The notes beneath the pieces were generated by a model. The model did not search any database. It had not been told where the DNA came from and saw nothing but the letters and a program-made list of their open reading frames with translations. From the human T2T-CHM13v2.0 reference genome, Homo sapiens, in the NCBI RefSeq assembly GCF_009914755.1, contig NC_060936.1: a DNA stretch of 64,000 nt, one strand, 5' to 3'. How positions within the stretch are numbered: position 1 is the first letter of the stretch; each line of letters begins with the position of its first letter. Positions 5,383 through 55,601 of the stretch are shown here, piece after piece. The position numbers and the translations under genes are program-made.

Positions 5383-6705
<1,323 letters not shown>

Positions 6706-20762: not shown

Positions 20763-21110
20763 AGGCTGTGTGTGCGAGTTCCCCCACCTTTATATAAACC
20801 TCAGAGGCTGTGCGAGTCCCCCTCCCACTTTATATAAACCGCAGAGGCTGTGTGAGTCCCCCTCCCCCTTTATATAAACCTCAGAGGCTGTGCGAGTCCC
20901 CCTCCCCCTTTATATAAACCGCAGAGGCTGTGAGTCCCTCCCCCTTTATATAAACCACAGAGGCTGTGCGAGTCCCCCTCCCCCTTTATATAAACCTCAG
21001 AGGCTGAGTCCTTCCCCCTTTATATAAACCTCAAAGGCTGTGTGTGCAAGTCCCTCCCTTATATAAACCTCAGAGGCTATGTATGCGAGTCCCCCACCCT
21101 TATATAAACC
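20763..21110. repeat. VNTR ~38-40 bp x 9 with a TTTATATAAA core (intron 23)
   Basis: GAGGCTGTGCGAGTCCCCCTCCCCCTTTATATAAACCTCA units. Confidence 0.95.
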
Positions 21111-21218
21111 TGCTGAAACTCTGCTGGGCACTCAGTACTGGCACCAGGAGTGCCCTCCCAGGTAAGAGGGCATTAATCTTTAAGACTAGCTGAAGTGCAG
21201 CACGGAATACGGTCGTAC

Positions 21219-21382: not shown

Positions 21383-22202
21383 CTGTTTTTAAAAGCACAT
21401 GATCAGCTTTCCCACCGTCCCCTCCCTCGGGTCAGTCTCACTAGCACAGCTTGTGGCAAACGGGCCTCCCCAACTGGTGGACGTGGGGCCTCTGGGAAGG
21501 GGACCGTCCTGGCCGCCGTGGCAGCCCAGCACGACAGTCCCCGGAGCTCCAGAATAGCTGGCTGAGGAAACACCTTTATTCCTAAGGCACAAAACCAGAG
21601 CAAAGCAGAGACAACCTAAGTCCTGGGTCTGCGGCAGGACGGGGCCGAGCCACAGACTACAGCTCTCCCAGACGCTTCTCCCATCAGATACTCAAGACCT
21701 TGATGTGGAATTTCCTTAAGAAATTAAGTAAGTTTTCCAGCTTAGGCTCCCTTTTCTGGGACTTCAAACTTTTTCCACAGATAAGCACACGACGCTAAAC
21801 GGCCTCTCAATCCGAGCGCTGCCCTCCCACCTGCCTCCTGGAAAACATGGATGTGGACCGAGCACAGAAAACCGCCGGGCGCCTGGGCACAGCTCCCGGG
21901 CCCCAGCCCTTCACACACAGCAGGGACTGCCGAGTCACAGACCACCGCTCATCTGCTTTACAAAGCACATTACAACAAAGTGGTATTTGAATTCACAGAA
22001 CGAGGAAAACACTGTTGGATGAATGAAACCAGAATGAAATGATTTCATCTGTCACCCCATTACCACTGACTACACAGCAGCTGCTCAGTGTGGGCTCAAC
22101 AAATCCGTTTATGTCTGAATGACTAACACGTCTGCCAGCCTCCTGTCCGAGAGCATCTACAGCGCACGTCGGCTACCCCGGGAGGGACGCGGGCCTGAGT
22201 AC

Positions 22203-22367
22203 CGTCTTGGCCGCGCCGCGGCGTAGGTCCAGCTTGAGCTGCTGGTTCTGCTGGAGCAGGGTCTTCATGTTGTTCTTCAGCTCCGACACTTTTGCCTGGA
22301 GCATAAATTTATCCTTCTGGGTCATGGACAGGTCTTCCTGGGCCATCTCCAACTCAGACTTGACGTT
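22203..22367 (-). CDS. GOLGA3: GOLGA3 exon 22 (NVKSELEMAQED...RRGAAKT)
   Basis: ttttccacag|AAC...ACG|gtactc; 165 nt. Confidence 0.94.
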
Positions 22368-22489
22368 CTGTGGAAAATGAAGTCAGATTTTTAAAAGCTA
22401 ACAGATCTTAAACATCCTGCCAAGATCCGAGTTTGTATTTTCATAGGTTAAGCACACACATGTCCTCCTCGGCGCCATCTAGATGATGC

Positions 22490-22818
22490 CAGTCCAGGTC
22501 CAAAATGCTCAGGACCAGAAGTGTGTCAAATTTTGGAATTTTGAATATTTGCGTTACAACTACCAGCTGAGTATCCACAATCCAAAAATTTGAAATGTTC
22601 CAATGATCATTTCCTTTATCATGTTGATGCTCAGAAAGTTTCAGATTTTGGATTTTTGTTCTTGTTTTTTTTAGACACAGGGTCTCACTCTGTCATCCAG
22701 GCTGGAGTGCAGTGGTCCAACCACAGCTCACTGCCTAAGTGCTGGGACTACAGGTGTGAGCCACCAGGCCTGGCCAGGTTTTGGATTTCTGGATGATGGA
22801 CGCTTGTCGGCCTGTGTC
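22490..22818. mobile_element. Tigger4/MER46 (Zombi)-like MITE with an inserted Alu fragment
   Basis: CCAAAATGCT..GGACCAGAAGTG...CTCAGAAAGTTTCAGATTTTGG. Confidence 0.6.
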
Positions 22819-23185
22819 TATAAATAAATTCTCACTGTAACTCAAGCCCCTCATTTACAAGGGGAACTTAGCAATTACACTCCTTTCCCGAGCAGTCAAG
22901 ACCGAACCCTGAGTTCTTTGTTGAGAAGTTTATCGCAAATTGGCAAACTTTTCCCACGCACCCTCCCATTTGCTGTAGTCCATGAAATCACGTTCTTGGT
23001 CCGTGACACACAGCGCGGCCAAGGGATCGGAGCCGGCCCAGGCTTCGCCCCTGCCTCTGTCCTGCCGCATGACGTGGACCAGGTGGCTTTGCGAGCGCCC
23101 CACTGGACGAGGGCGCCAGCTCCCCGGGAGCACTGCCTGGCCGCAGGCCGCATGGCACAGGAACCACGGGCTGCCCCAGAAGTGG

Positions 23186-24291
23186 TGCTCCCGCCTGTGT
23201 CCAGCACCTCATACACAGGTACCTGCAGCAGCTGCTGTAGCCCCTCCAGCTCCTTCCTGCCCTGCTGCTCCCGCCTGTGCCCAGCGCCTCAGATACAGGT
23301 ACCTGCAGCAGCTGCTGTAGCCCCTCCAGCTCCTTCCTGCCCTGCTGCTCCCGCCTGTGCCCAGCGCCTCAGATACAGGTACCTGCAGCAGCTGCTGTAG
23401 CCCCTCCAGCTCCTTCCTCCCTGCTGCTCCCGCCTGTACCCAGAGCCTCACACAGGTACCCGCAGCAGCTGCTGTAGCCCCTCCAGCTCCTTCCTCCCTG
23501 CTGCTCCCGCCTGTACCCAGAGCCTCACACAGGTACCCGCAGCAGCTGCTGTAGCCCCTCCAGTTCCTTCCTCCCTGCTGCTCCCGCCTGTGCCCAGCGC
23601 CTCACACACAGGTACCCACAGCAGCTGCTGTAGCCCCTCCAGCTCCTTCCTCCCTGCTGCTCCCGCCTGTACCCAGAGCCTCACACAGGTACCCGCAGCA
23701 GCTGCTGTAGCCCCTCCAGCTCCTTCCTCCCTGCTGCTCCCGCCTGTACCCAGCGCCTCACACACAGGTACCCGCAGCAGCTGCTGTAGCCCCTCCAGCT
23801 CCTTCCTCCCTGCTGCTCCCGCCTGTACCCAGCGCCTCACACACAGGTACCCGCAGCAGCTGCTGTAGCCCCTCCAGTTCCTTCCTCCCTGCTGCTCCCG
23901 CCTGTGCCCAGCGCCTCACACACAGGTACCTGCAGCAGCTGCTGTAGCCCCTCCAGCTCCTTCCTCCCTGCTGCTCCCGCCTGTACCCAGAGCCTCACAC
24001 AGGTACCCGCAGCAGCTGCTGTAGCCCCTCCAGTTCCTTCCTCCCTGCTGCTCCCGCCTGTGCCCAGCGCCTCACACACAGGTACCCGCAGCAGCTGCTG
24101 TAGCCCCTCCAGCTCCTTCCTCCCTGCTGCTCCCGCCTGTACCCAGCGCCTCACACACAGGTACCCACAGCAGCTGCTGTAGCCCCTCCAGTTCCTTCCT
24201 CCCTGCTGCTCCCGCCTGTGCCCAGCGCCTCACACACAGGTACCTGCAGCAGCTGCTGTAGCCCTTCCAGTTCCTTCCTGCCCTGCTGCTC
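23186..24291. repeat. VNTR 77-80 bp x 14 derived from the exon 21/intron 21 junction
   Basis: Each unit = last ~48 nt of exon 21 + first ~30 nt of intron 21. Confidence 0.97.
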
Positions 24292-24366
24292 CGTCAAGTC
24301 CAGCTGCTGCTTCAAGGACTGGATTTCTCTTTCTTTCTGATCCACCTCCCATTTGAGATTTTCCAT
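24244..24366 (-). CDS. GOLGA3: GOLGA3 exon 21 (MENLKWEVDQKE...LEGLQQLLQ)
   Basis: ctctttag|ATG...CAG|gtacct; 123 nt. Confidence 0.93.
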
Positions 24367-24567
24367 CTAAAGAGGGGAAAGTCACATGGCCAAAAGAATA
24401 TTAAAGTGGCTTTACTGCCCTGGAAAATGGCTCTAGCTGTGTTTTGGTTTATCTTTTAATACCATATTCAGAAAACCATCACTGTTGCTCCCCAAGCAGG
24501 ATGGAGTGAAGTCACCCAGGGCACCCGTGAGTCCAGCCCTGCAAGTCCAGCCCCCGTGAACCGTCAC

Positions 24568-24700
24568 CTCTTGGTTTCCCACGGGCTGTTTGCTGAGCTG
24601 CTCGTCCAGCTGCTTCTGCAGGAGCTGGAGCTGTGCCCGGGCCTCGGCCAGCTCTGCTTGGAACTGTGCTATCTCCTGGGAATGTTTCCCCTCCCGAATC
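24568..24700 (-). CDS. GOLGA3: GOLGA3 exon 20 (IREGKHSQEIAQF...PVGNQE)
   Basis: acgctag|GATT...GAG|gtgacg; 133 nt. Confidence 0.94.
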
Positions 24701-25274
24701 CTAGCGTAAAAAAACAAGAAAGAAGGGAATCGCCACGCTCCTCCAGTGTGCTGTGCCCTCCCGCTGGGAAATGCTGCCTGTGGAAGGCGTTCGTCCTGGC
24801 AGGCCCTCTGCTGTGCACTGCGTGCTGCAGCCATGCTTGGTGCCCACAGTGTGCACTCGGGCAGTCCTCACGAAGCACCTGAGACTCACACTTCACTGGC
24901 ACCCCTCACAGATCCCAGAGACTCACTTTGCCGGCACCCCTCACAGATCCCAGAGAGTGCCGGCCCCGAGACCACAGTGCATGGGACCCACAGAGCCAAG
25001 CATCAGCCCCGCGCCGGGCCGCCCCTTCCCGCCTCTGACCTGAAGCTAAGTACTCCTGCTGGGGCGCTTTCTCTCTTGGGGGGAGGACACGGGGCAGTGA
25101 GTGAGGCTCAGGATTCTGGAGACGGAGGCTGGGTGCCTTCTACTCCTATGATTCACTCAAGTACTCGGCAATTTGCAAAATATAGATGACCCTCGCTGTG
25201 CTGAAGGTGTGAATTAGACCCCGCCCATTGCCAGGACAGCCATGTTTGAGGGCTGGCGGGGCCCAGGCACTCAC

Positions 25275-27315: not shown

Positions 27316-27852
27316 TGCATGCACACACACCACAGCCCAGGCACACACGTGCGCACACACACCACAGCCCTTGCATGGACACCCCCCCCGTGCACATACA
27401 CACACCCCAGGCACACACGTGTGTGCACACACACCACAGCCCTTGCACGGACACCCCCCCCCGCGCACATACACCTCAGGCACACACGTGTGTACAGACA
27501 TCACAACTCTTGCACGCACAGCCCCCCGCATGCACACAACCCAGGCACACACGCGTATACAGACATCACAACCCTTCCACGCACAGCCCGCGTGCACACA
27601 CACCCCAGGCACACACGTGCGCACACACACCACAGCCCTTGCACGGACACCCCCCCGCGCACATACACACACACACCCCAGGCACACGTGTGTGCAGACA
27701 TCACACTTGCACGCACAGCCCCCCGCGTGCACACCACACCCCAGGCACACGTGTGTACAGACATCACAACACTTGCATGCACAGCCCCCCGCGTGCACAC
27801 ACACCACACCCCAGGCACACGTGCACGCACACCCCCCATGTGCACACACACG
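27316..27852. repeat. Compound CA-rich minisatellite (intron 18)
   Basis: Recurrent CCCCAGGCACACACGTG / CAGACATCACA motifs. Confidence 0.9.
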
Positions 27853-34989: not shown

Positions 34990-35550
34990 GGACCCAGGAC
35001 CTCTCCTCCAAACCCCCAGGACCCAGGACCCCTCCCCAGGGCCCCAGGAACCCTCCCCAAGGCCTAGGACCCCTCCTCAAGGATCCAGACCCCTCCTAGG
35101 AAACCCCAGGACCCCTCCCCAAGAGCCCCCGGGAACCCTCCCCACAAGCCCCTGGATCCCCTCCCCACAGTCCCCAGACCCCTCCCCCAGAGCCCCCAGG
35201 ACCCTTCCTGAGACCCCGGGACCCCTCCCCGGAGACCCCGGGACCCCTCCCCGGAGACCCCGGGACCCCTCCCCGGAGACCCCGGGACCCCTCCCCGGAG
35301 ACCACGGGACCCCTCCCCGGAGACCCCGGGACCCCTCCCCGGAGACCCCGGGACCCCTCCCCGGAGACCCCGGGACCCCTCCCCGGAGACCCCGGGACCC
35401 CTCCCCGGAGACCCCGGGACCCCTCCCCGGAGACCCCGGGACCCCTCCCCGGAGACCACGGGACCCCTCCCCGGAGACCACGGGACCCCTTCCCAAGACC
35501 CCAGGACCCTTCCTGAGACCCCAGGACCCTTCCCTGGACCCCCCCCTGGA
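34990..35550. repeat. 22-bp GC-rich VNTR (ACCCCTCCCCGGAGACCCCGGG) with degenerate flanks
   Basis: Near-perfect core ~35210-35490. Confidence 0.93.
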
Positions 35551-36647
35551 TGCCCTCCTCAGGATCAATTGTGAACACTGAGGGCCGCGTCCCCGACCTG
35601 CTCCTGCCCTCGCAGCCTTTCCCCAGCTCCTGTGTGCGAGGCGAGTCCCCACAACCAGCCCAGGCCTGCAGCTGTGGGGTCCGAACGTGCTCTGCCCGCA
35701 CTGCTGAGTCCTCCAAGCCTCCTACAGTCCAAAGAGCCGGCCCTCCCCTTGGCCCACCTCCCCACCCCGGCACCAGCGCTAATCCATCAGCCCTCACTTT
35801 CCAACAATGATGGTGCCGGCCACACCGCCTACTCACAGGCCTCAGCCTGGCTCCTAATGAGCCAGACATGCTGACCAATCTGCCTGCTGGGACCTTGGCT
35901 CGGTCCTCTCCGGCAACTTCAGAAACTTCATAAGCAAAACGTAGCACTTGGTCTAACGTGCCATCAGACGACTCTCCCCAAATTTACTGTTGCTCTCCTG
36001 ATTTCTCGTCTCACCTCCCGGTTCCTCAGCCTGGATGTCTGGACAGGATCCTGGACTGCGGCCTCCGTCCCCCGCCTCTACCCCTCACCTGCTCTGCTAC
36101 CTGCAGCCGAGAAACTGTCACCAGCATCTCGGACACCCACTGTGTGCAGAAGCCAGCCCAGGCTCAGCTGCCACAGGAACATGACTAGCTCTGGTCAGTC
36201 CCAGCTCCGCACTCAGCCACGAGGGACTCCCAGGGTCCCCGGGCCCCGACGCCCTGCCCTGACGTGGGGTCTCCACAAAACACTCACCCTTGCTTTCTGC
36301 ATGACAGCCGCTGTCCTCTCACATGCTAGATCCCGGGAGCCCATGGCAATGGGGAGAAGCTGGGTGCCTCACGGGGCCTCCTCACTCCCTCCCTTCATGC
36401 ACCATCACCACCTGGACTTACCAGGCCTCACCGGACTGCCCCTCTGGGACCTATGCTCCAGGTGGGCCTTGTTCCCAGCTGTTCTTCCAAAAGCCTCTCC
36501 CACCTTGGCCCCACCCCAGACACAGGCCCCGCCCCAGACAGACCCCGCCCCAGACACAGGCCCCGCCCCAGACACAGGCCCCACCCTCCCGACAAGCACT
36601 TTGGCCGAATCCTCCCCATCAAATGAGTCAACCCGACACGGACAGAC

Positions 36648-38886: not shown

Positions 38887-38964
38887 CTTTTGTTGGAGAA
38901 ACTGTTCCTTTATTTTTTGCATTTGCTTTTTCAGAGCAGCAGTCTCCTGCTGCAGGTGTTCCAC
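38887..38964 (-). CDS. GOLGA3: GOLGA3 exon 12 (VEHLQQETAALKKQMQKIKEQFLQQK)
   Basis: tctcccacag|GTG...AAG|gtaaaa; 78 nt. Confidence 0.93.
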
Positions 38965-38967
38965 CTG

Positions 38968-39488
38968 TGGGAGACATGTGCACAGACATTACACTGACGG
39001 CTCCAGGAGGGGAATCTGTCTGCACAGATGTTACACTGAAGCCTCCAGGAGGGGAACACATCTGCACAAATGTTACAGAGAGCTCCAGGAGGGGACACAT
39101 CCTCACAGATGTTACACTGAGGGCTCCAGGAAAGGACACATCTGCAGAGATGTTTCACTGAGGGCTCCAGAAGGGGCCACATCTGCAGCGATGTTACACT
39201 GAGGGCTCCAGAAGGGGCCACATCTGCAGCGATGTTACACTGAGGGCTCCAGGAAAGGACACATCTGCAGAGTTGTTACACTGAGGACTATAGGAGGGGA
39301 ATGTGTCTGCACAGATGTTACACTGAGGGCTCCAAGAGGGGGATGCATGTGCATGAATATTACACTGAGGGCTACAGCAGGGGGACACATCTACACAGAT
39401 GTTACACTGAGGGCTCCAGGAGGGGGATGCAACTACACAGACATTACACTGATGGCTCCAGGAGGGCACACATCTGCACAGATGTTAT
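38968..39488. repeat. ~40-bp minisatellite x ~13 abutting the exon 12 acceptor
   Basis: CACATCTGCACAGATGTTACACTGAGGGCTCCAGGAGGGG units. Confidence 0.93.
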
Positions 39489-39884: not shown

Positions 39885-40892
39885 TCGGGCCCCACACAGA
39901 CCCACCGCACAGGACCTGCACTCAGAGGGCTCCACACAGACCCACCCCACGGGACCTGCACTCCGAGGGCTCCACACAGACCGACCGCACGGGACCTGCA
40001 CTCGGAGGGCTCCACACAGACCCACCACACGGGATCTGCACTCGGAGGGCTCCACACGGACCGACCGCACGGGACCTGCACTCGGAGGGCTCCACACGGA
40101 CCGACCGCACGGGACCTGCACTCGGAGGGCTCCACACGGACCCACCCCACGGGACCTCCACTCGGAGGGCTCCACACAGACCGACCACACGGGACCTGCA
40201 CTCGGAGGGCTCCACACAGACCCACCACACGGGATCTGCACTCGGAGGGCCCCACACAGACCCACCCCACGGGACCTGCACTCGGAGGGCTCCACACAGA
40301 CCCACCACACGGGATCTGAACTCGGAGGGCTCCACACAGACAGACCGCACGGGACCTGCACTCGGAGGGCTCCACACAGACCCACCGCACGGGACCCGCA
40401 CTCGGAGGGCTCCACACAGACCCACCCCACGGGACCCGCACTCGGAGGGCTCCACACAGACCCACCGCACGGGACCCGCACTCGGAGGGCTCCACACAGA
40501 CCCATCGCACGGGACCCGCACTCGGAGGGCTCCACACAGACCCACCGCACGGGACCCGCACTCGGAGGGCTCCACACTGACCCACCGCACGGGACCCGCA
40601 CTCGGAGGGCTCCACACAGACCCACCGCACGGGACCCGCACTCGGAGGGCTCCACACAGACCCACCGCACGGGACCCGCACTCGGAGGGCTCCACACAGA
40701 CCCACCGCACGGGACCCGCACTCGGAGGGCTCCACACAGACCCACCGCACGGGACCCGCACTCGGAGGGCTCCACACAGACCCACCGCAGGGGACCCGCA
40801 CTCGGAGGGCTCCACACAGACCCACCGCACGGGATCTGCACTCGGAGGGCTCCATACAGACCCACGGCACAGGACCTGCACTTGGAGGGTCC
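39885..40892. repeat. 40-bp VNTR x ~25 (CCACACAGACCCACCGCACGGGACCCGCACTCGGAGGGCT)
   Basis: Strict 40-bp period. Confidence 0.97.
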
Positions 40893-52202: not shown

Positions 52203-52702
52203 TCAGGGCCTGACAGGGGACCCCGAGACCCCCAGGCGCTCTCCCAAGGCCTGACAGAGGACCCCAAGACCCCCAGGCGCTCTCCCAAGGCCTGACAGGG
52301 GACCCCAAGACCCCCAGGCGCTCTCCCAAGGCCTGACAGGGGACCCCAAGACCCCCAGGCGCTCTCCCAAGGCCTGACAGAGGACCCTGCCCCGAGAACC
52401 CCAGGCGCTCTCCCAAGGCCTGACAGGGGACCCCGAGACCCCCAGGCGCTCTCCCAAGGCCTGACAGGGGACCCCGAGACCCCCAGGCGCTCTCCCAAGG
52501 CCTGACAGGGGACCCCGAGACCCCCAGGCGCTCTCCCAAGGCCTGACAGGGGACCCCGAGACCCCCAGGCGCTCTCCCAAGGCCTGACAGGGGACCCCGA
52601 GACCCCCAGGCGCTCTCCCAAGGCCTGACAGGGGACCCCGAGACCCCCAGGCGCTCTCCCAAGGCCTGACAGAGGACCCCGAGACCCCCAGGCGCTCTCC
52701 CA
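52203..52702. repeat. 41-bp VNTR x ~12 (GGCCTGACAGGGGACCCCGAGACCCCCAGGCGCTCTCCCAA)
   Basis: Direct periodicity. Confidence 0.95.
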
Positions 52703-54340: not shown

Positions 54341-54811
54341 CTGGGGACAAAGGCACGGGTCAGGCCTGTGCGAGCCATCCTCATTTTCCTTCACACTCCT
54401 CCACATTCTCCAAATTCCACACACCCCTGCTGCTCTCTCCCAATTTTTTAAAATTAAGTAAGAGATTTAAGTAGAGAGCTGAGGCTTGCATGATGCACGG
54501 ATGAACATTCCTGCCAACAGTTGGCACCTCACTCAGTGGGAACTGTTACAGAAACATGAGACATGCAAGCGTCGTGCAGCTTAGTGACAAGTCTATGTAA
54601 ACGGGAGACTGGATATTTTAGTAACACAGACCATTGCTGATCTAATTCTACTGATTAAAAAGCAGCGGACTTGTTATGAATTAAATGTTCATGTCAAGAC
54701 TAAGGATAGAATCAGGAAGAAAAGCTGTGTATCGCCTGTTCCAGTGCGGAGAGCCGTGGGCCCGGGAAGCAACATCTCAGGCCAGGCCCTCTGCCTGCCC
54801 TGCCCGTCTCT

Positions 54812-54942
54812 GCCCACCCCGCCCCCTCTGTTGGCCCCACCCACCTCTGCTACCGCCCCACCCACCTCTGCCCGCCCCACACCCCCCTCTGTTGGCCCCA
54901 CCCACCTCCACCCACCCCGCCCACCTCTGCTGTCCCCACCAC
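54812..54942 (-). repeat. G-rich (sense strand) degenerate repeat right after the exon 5 donor
   Basis: CCCACCCACCTCTG repeats on +. Confidence 0.8.
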
Positions 54943-55601
54943 CTGCTGCAGATGCTGTCTCTCCGACTCCGCACCTCCCCGTTGACCTCCTGCCCCTGGT
55001 CTTGGTGCTCAGCGGCTGCGGCCTGGAGGACGTCCTTAATGGAGGGGAACTGGCCCAGGGTATCCGCAGGAATCTCCTGGCCGTTGACCATATAGGGGGT
55101 GTCCTGCGTGCCCACTGTCTTCGACAGAATGCCATAGGTCCCTCGGGTGGAGGCGCTGCTGTACGATGAGCTGTCGCTGTCATTTCCATCCACCTCAGAC
55201 ACGCTGTCTCCAGCCAGGGAGGTGTTCTCCAGACGGTCGTCAGTGTCGGGGGACAGGCTGATCTCAGACACAACGGACGCCGCACTGCTTCTGTTCTGCT
55301 TCAGGGAACCCTTGGTAGAATCGGGAGCCGGGACATTTCCCCCAGAATTCCCCGCATTTGAATCTTCAGTTCTGTAATCGGCCAGAGACCGGATTTTGCT
55401 TGATTTGGAAGTTTTTTTCTCCCTAGGATGTGCCGGAAGCCCCAGGCTGCCCACCTTAGGCCCCCGAGGGACACTGGTGCGCAGGAAGGAATATTCTTTT
55501 GTCATAGCCAGGGTACTGGCCCTTGGTAAGTTTTCTGGGTTTAACATGAGCTCAGGATCAAGCGTGCTAAAAAGTCTCGTTTTGGTTGCAGGTTGACTGG
55601 A
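54943..55601 (-). CDS. GOLGA3: GOLGA3 exon 5, head domain with NLS-like PREKKTSK and caspase site SEVD
   Basis: ttcttctcag|TCC...AGCAG|gtggtg; 659 nt; with recalled numbering SEVD falls at D311, matching golgin-160. Confidence 0.95.

What the first reader, a model, noticed from the sequence alone, without database searches (positions are those of the whole stretch)
23186..24291. VNTR built from an exon-intron junction: 13 extra 5' splice sites behind GOLGA3 exon 21
Seen: the unit is the exon 21 3' end (EQQGRKELEGLQQLLQ) plus its donor GTACCT. Donor-equivalent positions are 24244 (authentic), 24165, 24086, 24007, 23930, 23851, 23772, 23693, 23616, 23537, 23460, 23383, 23303 and 23223. Four copies (23930, 23383, 23303, 23223) keep CAG|GTACCT; the others are CGG| or TGG|. 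The first extra donor adds 79 nt (frameshift), and all later ones include the in-frame stop at 24153-24151, so every alternative donor is non-productive. Inference: copy number and unit type could act as a splicing/NMD dial on golgin-160 dosage or as a U1/SR decoy array. The authentic donor is itself non-consensus.
Basis: partly seen in the sequence, partly recalled or inferred. Interest (0 to 1): 0.78.

Follow-up and report, generated by a model that had tools for sequence, protein, structure and literature searches.

The report
GOLGA3 exon-21 splice-junction minisatellite
A variable 79-base tandem repeat in the human GOLGA3 gene copies the end of exon 21 and its splice signal 13 extra times; it is real and already catalogued, and whether the extra splice signals are ever used is still untested.

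Summary
Window 23186-24292 holds 14.1 copies of a 79-base unit. The first unit is the last 48 nt of GOLGA3 exon 21 plus its donor cag|GTACCT, and 13 donor copies follow at exactly the listed positions. Four keep CAG, seven are CGG and two are TGG. All 13 would give a premature stop.

The array is a true VNTR. GRCh38 holds 559 bp and CHM13 holds 1107 bp, about 7 versus 14 units.

It is already catalogued. Lu et al. 2023 list it as the lead expression-associated motif locus for GOLGA3. The motif is a CGG-type junction and has a positive slope. The same locus is equally strongly associated with neighbouring ANKLE2, with the opposite sign, and GOLGA3 is absent from their fine-mapped set. That pattern favours linkage or a chromatin effect over NMD.

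The ABCA7 intron-18 VNTR is a close precedent: cryptic unit-donor use was about 2% and did not depend on length.

Best reading: a minisatellite born from the exon-intron junction, with mostly silent pseudo-donors and a small NMD leak. A dosage dial remains possible but is not shown.

The parts
24244..24366 (-). GOLGA3 exon 21 (123 nt, phase 0-0). Its last 48 nt (24291-24244) form the exonic half of repeat unit 1.
   Evidence: Hub RefSeq table; translation; unit alignment.
23186..24292 (-). The minisatellite: 14.1 units of 77-80 nt. On the sense strand it is 46% G, with G/C skew +0.40 and 5.9 G-runs per 100 nt.
24238..24246 (-). Authentic 5' splice site, cag|GTACCT.
   Evidence: Hub table (exon ends at 24244).
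23924..23932 (-). Pseudo-donor cag|GTACCT in unit 5. Its use would add 314 nt. Unit 5 equals units 3 (CGG) and 9 (TGG) except at this CpG.
23377..23385 (-). Pseudo-donor cag|GTACCT followed by GTATCT (unit 12). Its use would add 861 nt.
23297..23305 (-). Pseudo-donor cag|GTACCT followed by GTATCT (unit 13, 94% identical to the exon copy). Its use would add 941 nt.
23217..23225 (-). Last pseudo-donor, cag|GTACCT (unit 14). Its use would add 1021 nt.
24151..24153 (-). In-frame TGA, included by 12 of the 13 extra donors and by intron retention.
23585..24212 (-). Two copies of a four-unit, 314-nt higher-order block: units 2-5 and units 6-9. Paired units are 97-99% identical.
   Evidence: TRF period 314; identity matrix.
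22203..22367 (-). Exon 22. Its acceptor at 22367 is the partner of all 14 donors. The frameshift stop for donor 24165 lies 11 nt inside it.
   Evidence: Hub table.

Best explanation
This is a polymorphic, GC-rich minisatellite. It arose by tandem duplication of about 79 bases spanning the last 48 nt of GOLGA3 exon 21 and the first 31 nt of intron 21. Unit 1 is the working exon end and donor. The other 13 units are intronic pseudo-junctions. The inner units (2-12) descend from one variant that lost one base of the exonic part, and most of them also changed the donor's -2 A to G (CGG). That CGG has since decayed by CpG transition to TGG (2 units) or back to CAG (unit 5).

Inferred, not shown: splicing uses the first donor for three reasons. 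It alone lies 123 nt from the exon 21 acceptor. It is transcribed first. Every later copy lies behind 4-5 G-runs per unit, and G-runs help an upstream donor while silencing a downstream one. Later donors, mainly the four CAG copies, probably capture at most a few percent of transcripts. All such products carry a premature stop and should be removed by NMD. On this reading the array is mostly a neutral by-product with a small, allele-dependent leak. The published link between its motif content and GOLGA3 and ANKLE2 mRNA levels more likely reflects linkage or a chromatin effect than NMD.
For: Structure and frames.
Local origin: the unit occurs nowhere else in the T2T genome.
Variability: GRCh38 VNTR is chr12:132776122-132776680, 559 bp, against 1107 bp here. 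GRCh38 intron 21 is 1328 nt from the coordinates, against 1876 nt here. Both differences are 548 nt, about 7 units (my arithmetic).
Minisatellite setting: TRF gives 42 rows in the 64-kb window, including many 18-82-bp arrays.
Weakened copies: 9 of 13 pseudo-donors lack -2A and score about 2.3 bits or more below the authentic site on a recalled matrix.
CpG trio: units 3, 5 and 9 are identical except for CGG/CAG/TGG.
G-runs: 5.9 per 100 nt in the array against 2.0 in the other GOLGA3 introns, and 4-5 between each pair of donors.
Positional rule for G-runs: passages of PMC12062376, where G-runs between a weak native donor and a cryptic donor were required for native donor use.
Precedent: in the ABCA7 VNTR the unit donor was used in 2 +/- 1% of transcripts, independent of length.
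Annotation: no RefSeq exon boundary lies inside the array (hub table).
Shared association: an ANKLE2 association of equal strength at the same locus, and GOLGA3 absent from the fine-mapped table.
Against: Four pseudo-donors have the same 9-mer as the authentic site, and their 48-nt upstream context is nearly the same (unit 13 is 94% identical). Local sequence therefore does not explain why they would be silent. In vitro, two strong competing 5' sites can both bind U1 (abstract of PMC3413131). The usual preference for the site nearer the acceptor, which I recall rather than read, would favour the pseudo-donors.

The published GOLGA3 expression motif differs from CHM13 units 12-13 exactly at donor position -2 (G instead of A), and its slope is positive. 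That is what an NMD leak through CAG copies predicts.

NMD would hide such isoforms from annotation. No RNA data were available here, so low usage is an assumption.

The link between weak donors and G-runs across the 21 introns is not significant (Spearman -0.32, p 0.15). Only a post hoc split gave p 0.008.
Confidence: 0.52

Rival explanations
1. The number and type of pseudo-donors set the share of GOLGA3 pre-mRNA that is spliced unproductively and lost to NMD. On this view the array tunes golgin-160 dosage between haplotypes, and CpG transitions switch individual donors on (CGG to CAG) or further off (CGG to TGG).
For: 13 of 13 extra donors are non-productive. Four are identical to the authentic 9-mer. 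The authentic donor is weak, rank 16 of 21 on a recalled matrix. Copy number differs two-fold between two assemblies. A lead GOLGA3 expression motif in at least 2 tissues is the -2G version of the GTATCT-type junction, with slope +0.37. Exon 21 is easily lost when an exonic site is masked by an off-target oligonucleotide (dPSI 0.73, control PSI 1.0), so its definition is fragile.
Against: No transcript evidence of use: RefSeq has none (hub table), and no differential event with coordinates in the array appears in the tables searched, though those tables list only significant events. The same locus is equally associated with ANKLE2. GOLGA3 is absent from the fine-mapped table, and the length-based lead VNTR for GOLGA3 is a different locus. 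In ABCA7 the unit-donor isoform did not depend on length.
Confidence: 0.2
2. The array helps the authentic donor. It acts as a long block of G-runs (hnRNP H/F sites), and possibly extra U1 landing sites, directly downstream of a weak 5' splice site. On this view it enforces the exon 21 border, and longer arrays give more robust exon 21 inclusion.
For: 5 G-runs lie in the first 79 intronic nt and 12 in the first 200 nt, the third highest of 21 introns. The two introns with more G-runs also follow weak donors and contain G-rich arrays. In TP53 intron 6, G-runs between a weak native donor and a cryptic donor were essential for the native donor.
Against: The correlation across the 21 introns is not significant. 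The GRCh38 allele, with half the array, is evidently functional. The G-richness may simply be inherited from the duplicated junction sequence.
Confidence: 0.13
3. The array acts at the DNA or chromatin level, for example through CpG methylation, G-rich non-template-strand structures, or factor binding. On this view it influences transcription of both GOLGA3 and ANKLE2, and the splice-site content is incidental.
For: Motifs of this one locus are the lead expression motifs for two neighbouring genes in the same tissue, with opposite signs. The array has 30 CpGs and a strong G/C skew.
Against: Not fine-mapped. CpG observed/expected is only 0.31. The RefSeq functional-element spans shown in the hub table do not overlap the array, although two spans are not shown. 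Linkage with ordinary eQTL SNPs explains the same data.
Confidence: 0.12

Closest known systems
ABCA7 intron-18 VNTR (De Roeck et al. 2018, PMC5954066; passages read)
   Same: An intronic VNTR that begins at the authentic donor of the upstream exon, with a donor-like GT in each unit. Use of the next unit's donor adds one unit, shifts the frame and gives a PTC/NMD isoform. Copy number is polymorphic and associated with expression.
   Different: The ABCA7 unit is 25 bp and starts at the GT, so it contains no exon sequence. The GOLGA3 unit is 79 bp and includes 48 coding bases, so the whole exonic context of the donor is copied. For ABCA7, isoforms were measured (2 +/- 1%, length-independent; exon 19 skipping rose with length). 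For GOLGA3 nothing has been measured.
Classical GC-rich minisatellites (Jeffreys type; knowledge recalled, not read here)
   Same: Unit of tens of bases, GC-rich with purine/pyrimidine strand asymmetry, internal variant units, higher-order blocks, a position near a chromosome end, and many sister arrays nearby. The recalled core GGGCAGGANG is present in the exon copy and in units 13-14.
   Different: The seed is a functional exon-intron junction, so one edge unit is under coding and splicing constraint. No PRDM9-type 13-mer lies in the array.
Duplicated 5' splice-site competition constructs (Hodson et al. 2012, PMC3413131; abstract passages read)
   Same: Identical donors in tandem upstream of a single acceptor. 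Surplus U1 snRNPs can bind and are purged at complex A.
   Different: Those are artificial pairs of strong sites about 100-200 nt apart. Here there are 14 weak natural sites spread over 1 kb in a polymorphic allelic series.
TP53 intron 6 G-run enhancer (PMC12062376; passages read)
   Same: A weak native donor followed by several G-runs and then a cryptic donor. The G-runs favour the upstream site.
   Different: TP53 has five G-runs in 85 nt and no repeat. In GOLGA3 the role of the G-runs is inferred only.

Membership tests
Minisatellite / VNTR | Head-to-tail units of about 10-100 bp | tested here: met
   Period 79, 14.1 copies, 95% matches.
Minisatellite / VNTR | Copy number varies between haplotypes | tested here: met
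   GRCh38 has 559 bp and CHM13 has 1107 bp. The intron 21 length difference of 548 nt (coordinates against the hub table) matches exactly. The locus also passed Lu et al.'s filter 'length variable on the HGSVC'. Only two alleles were seen directly.
Donor-containing intronic VNTR (ABCA7 type) | The array starts at or includes the authentic 5' splice site, and each unit carries a donor-like GT | tested here: met
   14 of 14 units carry GTACCTGT, and unit 1 is the annotated donor (hub table).
Donor-containing intronic VNTR (ABCA7 type) | Unit donors are actually used, giving frameshift/PTC isoforms | not testable with these tools
   Reading frames predict a PTC for 13 of 13. No RNA data were available here, and RefSeq shows no such isoform (hub table).
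Donor-containing intronic VNTR (ABCA7 type) | VNTR length or composition associates with splicing or expression | tested here: inconclusive
   It is the lead expression motif locus for GOLGA3 in at least 2 tissues, but also for ANKLE2. GOLGA3 is not in the fine-mapped table and was not found in the length-based table for this locus.
Regulated unproductive splicing (AS-NMD dial) | PTC more than 50-55 nt upstream of the last exon junction | tested here: met
   The stops lie in the extended exon 21 or 11 nt into exon 22, with two or more junctions downstream. The NMD rule itself is established knowledge.
Regulated unproductive splicing (AS-NMD dial) | The isoform is detectable, rises on NMD block, and responds to a regulator | not testable with these tools
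   No RNA-seq access.
U1 / SR decoy array | U1 snRNP or SR proteins bind the pseudo-sites | not testable with these tools
   Only motif content is known: a purine-rich GAGGAAGGA in 11 units (GARGAR count 11) and U1 complementarity at 6-7 of 9 positions for 11 of the 13 pseudo-donors (the CAG and CGG copies; not listed for the two TGG copies).

The most novel reading that the evidence does not exclude
The count of full-strength (CAG) pseudo-donors in the array sets how much GOLGA3 pre-mRNA is lost to NMD, and methylated-CpG transitions at donor position -2/-3 act as a fast mutational toggle (CGG to CAG switches a donor on; CGG to TGG switches it further off). On this reading the published positive expression motif (the -2G version of the GTATCT-type unit) would be the causal variant itself. 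Human haplotypes would then carry heritable, stepwise differences in golgin-160 dosage written in the splice-site content of a minisatellite.
Probability: 0.15. Interest if true: 0.7.

Novelty: new member of a known kind. Interest (0 to 1): 0.42.

Why it matters
If the pseudo-donors are used, this locus is a natural allelic series for two questions: how cells choose among identical 5' splice sites, and how far repeat composition, rather than length, sets gene dosage through NMD. The series spans at least 7 to 14 copies and mixes CAG, CGG and TGG donors.

There is also a practical point that does not depend on function. The last 48 coding bases of exon 21 are repeated up to 13 times nearby, with a 1-base deletion and a Q-to-R/W-type change in most copies. 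Short-read variant calls and RNA-seq counts for this part of GOLGA3 are therefore at risk of mis-mapping. Unequal exchange with a breakpoint in the exonic part could also create a true frameshift allele. Both points are inferences.

Tried and rejected
1. RNA structure hiding the pseudo-donors. A partition-function fold of 1568 nt gave mean P(unpaired) of 0.45 for the authentic site and 0.05-0.62 for the copies. The four CAG copies scored 0.39-0.49, so there is no distinction.
2. PRDM9-type 13-mer (recalled motif). There were 8 matches in the window against 4.8 expected, and none in the array.
3. Rfam. Only 5 sub-threshold chance hits in 22000-25000.
4. A telescripting role for extra U1 sites. 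There is no AATAAA or ATTAAA anywhere in intron 21.
5. Splicing within the array, or exonisation. The best AG candidates have pyrimidine fractions of 0.53-0.59, against 0.71-0.82 for real acceptors.
6. Coding potential. Stop-to-stop frames in the array reach at most 155 aa on either strand and are all repeat-derived.
7. Other genomic copies. None were found. That search skips very common words, so this is a lower bound.
8. The MIR137 VNTR as a precedent. Its novel donors lie outside the repeat units, so it is not close.
9. Papers on this array. Searches for GOLGA3 with VNTR, with tandem repeat and splicing, with nonsense-mediated and with sQTL found none about it. A looser search listed no paper containing GOLGA3. 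GOLGA3 is absent from the spl-TR paper's main text and the 10 supplement files that were searched (file 1 was not searched). It is also absent from the supplements of PMC8275641 and PMC11701250 (1 file held).
10. The two remaining GOLGA3 rows of Lu et al. Data S3. A tissue-phrase search returned nothing, so I saw 2 of 4 GOLGA3 rows, and 3 of the 6 rows for this locus. The stored file is cut.
12. MaxEntScan and SpliceAI were not available.

Full report
**1. The observation**

The window is T2T-CHM13 chr12:132804001-132868000, and GOLGA3 lies on the minus strand (hub table; one search gives the same placement). Reading 22100-24800 on the minus strand shows exon 21 ending ...CTGCTGCAG|GTACCTGTGTGTGAGG, followed by near-copies of the same text.

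Tandem Repeats Finder reports one array at 23186-24292. Its period is 79, with 14.1 copies and 95% matches, and the same array is also reported at periods 156 and 314.

A script located GTACCTGT 14 times. The donor-equivalent positions are exactly those in the finding, and the spacings are 79,79,79,77,79,79,79,77,79,77,77,80,80. The three bases before the GT are:

| -3..-1 | Units | Positions |
|---|---|---|
| CAG | 5 of 14 | authentic 24244, plus 23930, 23383, 23303, 23223 |
| CGG | 7 of 14 | the remaining seven |
| TGG | 2 of 14 | 24165, 23616 |

A 23-base junction word matches 14 times, against 0 expected in 100 shuffles, and nowhere else in the window. In the whole assembly a 236-base piece of the array matches only this locus (7 overlapping matches). 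That search is a lower bound for repeats.

**2. Reading frames**

Exon 21 is 123 nt, phase 0-0, and ends EQQGRKELEGLQQLLQ.
- Donor 24165 adds 79 nt and shifts the frame. The stop then falls 11 nt into exon 22.
- The other 12 extra donors add 158 to 1021 nt, and all of them include the in-frame TGA at 24153-24151.
- Each stop lies upstream of at least two exon junctions. By the established 50-55-nt rule, all 13 products are predicted NMD substrates.

**3. Anatomy and history of the array**

Aligning the units shows three kinds.
- Unit 1 is the exon copy.
- Units 13 and 14, at the far end, keep the exon's GGGCAGG and the CAG donor. Unit 13 is 94% identical to unit 1 and unit 14 is 87%.
- Units 2-12 all lack one base (GGGAGG), a change that would shift the frame if copied into the exon. 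Nine of these eleven have CGG or TGG in place of CAG.

The other two exonic-part differences (GAA to GAG, twice) would be synonymous in the exon frame. This is my reading.

Units 2-5 and 6-9 form a duplicated four-unit block of 314 nt, with paired units 97-99% identical. Units 10 and 11 are 100% identical to units 4 and 8.

Units 3, 5 and 9 are identical except at one CpG, where they read CGG, CAG and TGG. CAG and TGG are the two transition products of a methylated CpG. The CAG of unit 5 is therefore most simply a secondary re-creation of the full-strength donor (inference).

The picture is a first duplication of the junction, then expansion of one inner variant, which is the usual pattern for minisatellites.

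The region fits that class:
- TRF gives 42 rows in the 64-kb window, including many 18-82-bp arrays.
- The array is 66% GC and its sense strand is 46% G.
- The recalled Jeffreys-type core GGGCAGGANG is present in unit 1 and units 13-14.
- No PRDM9-type 13-mer lies in it.

**4. It is variable, and already catalogued**

A paper on antisense-oligonucleotide off-targets gives GRCh38 coordinates for exon 21 (12:132776634-132776756) and for the upstream end of exon 22 (132775305). From these, GRCh38 intron 21 is 1328 nt, against 1876 nt here. The difference is 548 nt (my arithmetic).

Lu et al. 2023 (PMC10234305) list a VNTR at chr12:132776122-132776680, which is 559 bp, against 1107 bp here. The difference is again 548. 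GRCh38 therefore carries about 7 units and CHM13 about 14. The locus also passed their filter for length variation in HGSVC assemblies.

Their gene-level table has the header read. In it this VNTR is the lead expression-motif locus for GOLGA3:

| Tissue | Slope | p | q |
|---|---|---|---|
| Cultured fibroblasts | +0.370 | 1.6e-15 | 3.0e-11 |
| Esophagus muscularis | +0.369 | 6.3e-15 | (not quoted) |

I saw 2 of the 4 GOLGA3 rows, and the stored file is cut.

The motif is the junction word of the GTATCT-type unit, but with CGG. In CHM13 both GTATCT-type units (donors 23383 and 23303) carry CAG, and none of the 14 units carries the CGG form. More copies of the weakened-donor form go with more GOLGA3 mRNA, which is the direction an NMD leak would predict.

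Three results from the same data set cut the other way.
- A motif in this same VNTR is the lead expression motif for the neighbouring gene ANKLE2 in fibroblasts, with slope -0.361 and p 1.9e-15. GOLGA3 splicing cannot cause that.
- GOLGA3 has no hit in the fine-mapped table (posterior above 0.8).
- The length-based table lists a different VNTR for GOLGA3.

The authors themselves state that most such associations are linked to nearby eQTLs.

**5. Why the first donor should win (inferred)**

The CGG copies score 2.3 bits lower. The four CAG copies are identical to the authentic 9-mer, so local sequence cannot separate them from it.

What does differ:
- *Distance to the exon 21 acceptor.* It is 123 nt for the authentic site. 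For the CAG copies it is 437, 984, 1064 and 1144 nt (added lengths).
- *G-run load.* There are 4-5 G-runs between each pair of donors, and 5.9 per 100 nt in the array against 2.0 in the other GOLGA3 introns.

According to passages of PMC12062376, G-runs enhance a donor that lies upstream of them and silence when they are exonic. In TP53 intron 6, removing the G-runs between a weak native donor and a cryptic donor inactivated the native site.

Across the 21 introns the link between weak donors and G-runs is not significant (Spearman -0.32, p 0.15). Only a post hoc split gave p 0.008.

Equilibrium RNA folding gave no accessibility difference. The array contains no usable acceptors, and intron 21 contains no poly(A) signals.

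**6. What is known elsewhere**

The closest precedent is the ABCA7 intron-18 VNTR (PMC5954066). Its 25-bp units start at the GT of the exon 18 donor. A cryptic donor one unit downstream is used, which adds 25 nt, shifts the frame and gives a PTC/NMD isoform. That isoform made up 2 +/- 1% of transcripts and was unaffected by VNTR length. Skipping of the next exon rose with length, and expression fell with it.

The GOLGA3 array is the same kind of object. It differs in that the unit also copies 48 coding bases.

In cells treated with an ATXN3 oligonucleotide, GOLGA3 exon 21 was the largest hybridisation-linked off-target (dPSI 0.73; control PSI 1.0 in 7 of 7 replicates). The predicted binding site has 3 mismatches and lies in the unique upstream part of exon 21, not in the repeated part. 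This shows that exon 21 is weakly defined. It says nothing about the pseudo-donors. No significant event with coordinates inside the array appears in the supplement files searched (files 2 and 6 were not searched).

I found no paper that discusses this array.

**7. Verdict**

The structure is real, variable and of local origin. It is a new member of a known kind, the donor-containing intronic VNTR.

The dosage-dial idea is neither shown nor excluded. I put it at about 0.2, and at about 0.15 in its strongest form. The most likely reading, at about 0.5, is a largely neutral minisatellite with a small NMD leak, whose expression associations arise from linkage or chromatin effects.

The decisive data are junction reads under NMD block and haplotype-resolved counts of CAG units set against allele-specific expression. 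Both already exist in public resources that I could not reach.

Noticed in passing
window 54788-54949 (minus strand; intron after GOLGA3 exon 5, whose donor is at 54943): A second array starts at a donor. It is a G-rich 19/40-bp repeat that begins at cag|GTGGTG and carries gag|GTGGGT pseudo-donors. These score higher (4.84) than the authentic site (0.77) on the recalled matrix. Three of them would add 37, 77 or 98 nt, none of which is a multiple of three. The first 200 nt of this intron hold 20 G-runs, the most of the 21 introns.
   Followed up: partly
window 38969-39487: A 41-bp x 12.6 array ends 5 nt from the acceptor side of GOLGA3 exon 12 (38887-38964). The polypyrimidine tract, and probably the branch point, therefore lie in repeat sequence.
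   Followed up: partly
window 36507-36586: An 18-bp x 4.6 array, G-rich on the sense strand, lies about 60 nt downstream of the weak exon 13 donor cag|GTCTGT. The first 200 intronic nt hold 15 G-runs.
   Followed up: partly
window 5498-6327, 20771-21111, 27326-27805, 35088-35538, 39887-40889, 52207-52702: The window is unusually rich in minisatellites, for example 44 bp x 19, 40 bp x 25 and 41 bp x 12. This is typical of a chromosome-end region.
   Followed up: no
window 24234-24255 (and each unit): The junction consists of two adjacent perfect palindromes, CAGCAGCTGCTG and CAGGTACCTG, seen directly. The donor motif therefore reads the same on both strands, and units could pair with each other. 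The equilibrium fold showed no consistent masking.
   Followed up: partly
window about 24295-24312 (exon 21, unique part): A published off-target antisense oligonucleotide site with 3 mismatches lies here. Masking it causes strong skipping of exon 21, and of exon 20 with it (PMC12581821). This suggests an important exonic enhancer just upstream of the repeated part.
   Followed up: partly
GRCh38 chr12:132776122-132776680 (= window 23186-24292), in relation to ANKLE2: A CGG-type junction motif of this VNTR is the lead expression motif for ANKLE2 in fibroblasts (slope -0.36, p 1.9e-15). Six rows in the held part of the table name this locus, and I saw three of them.
   Followed up: partly
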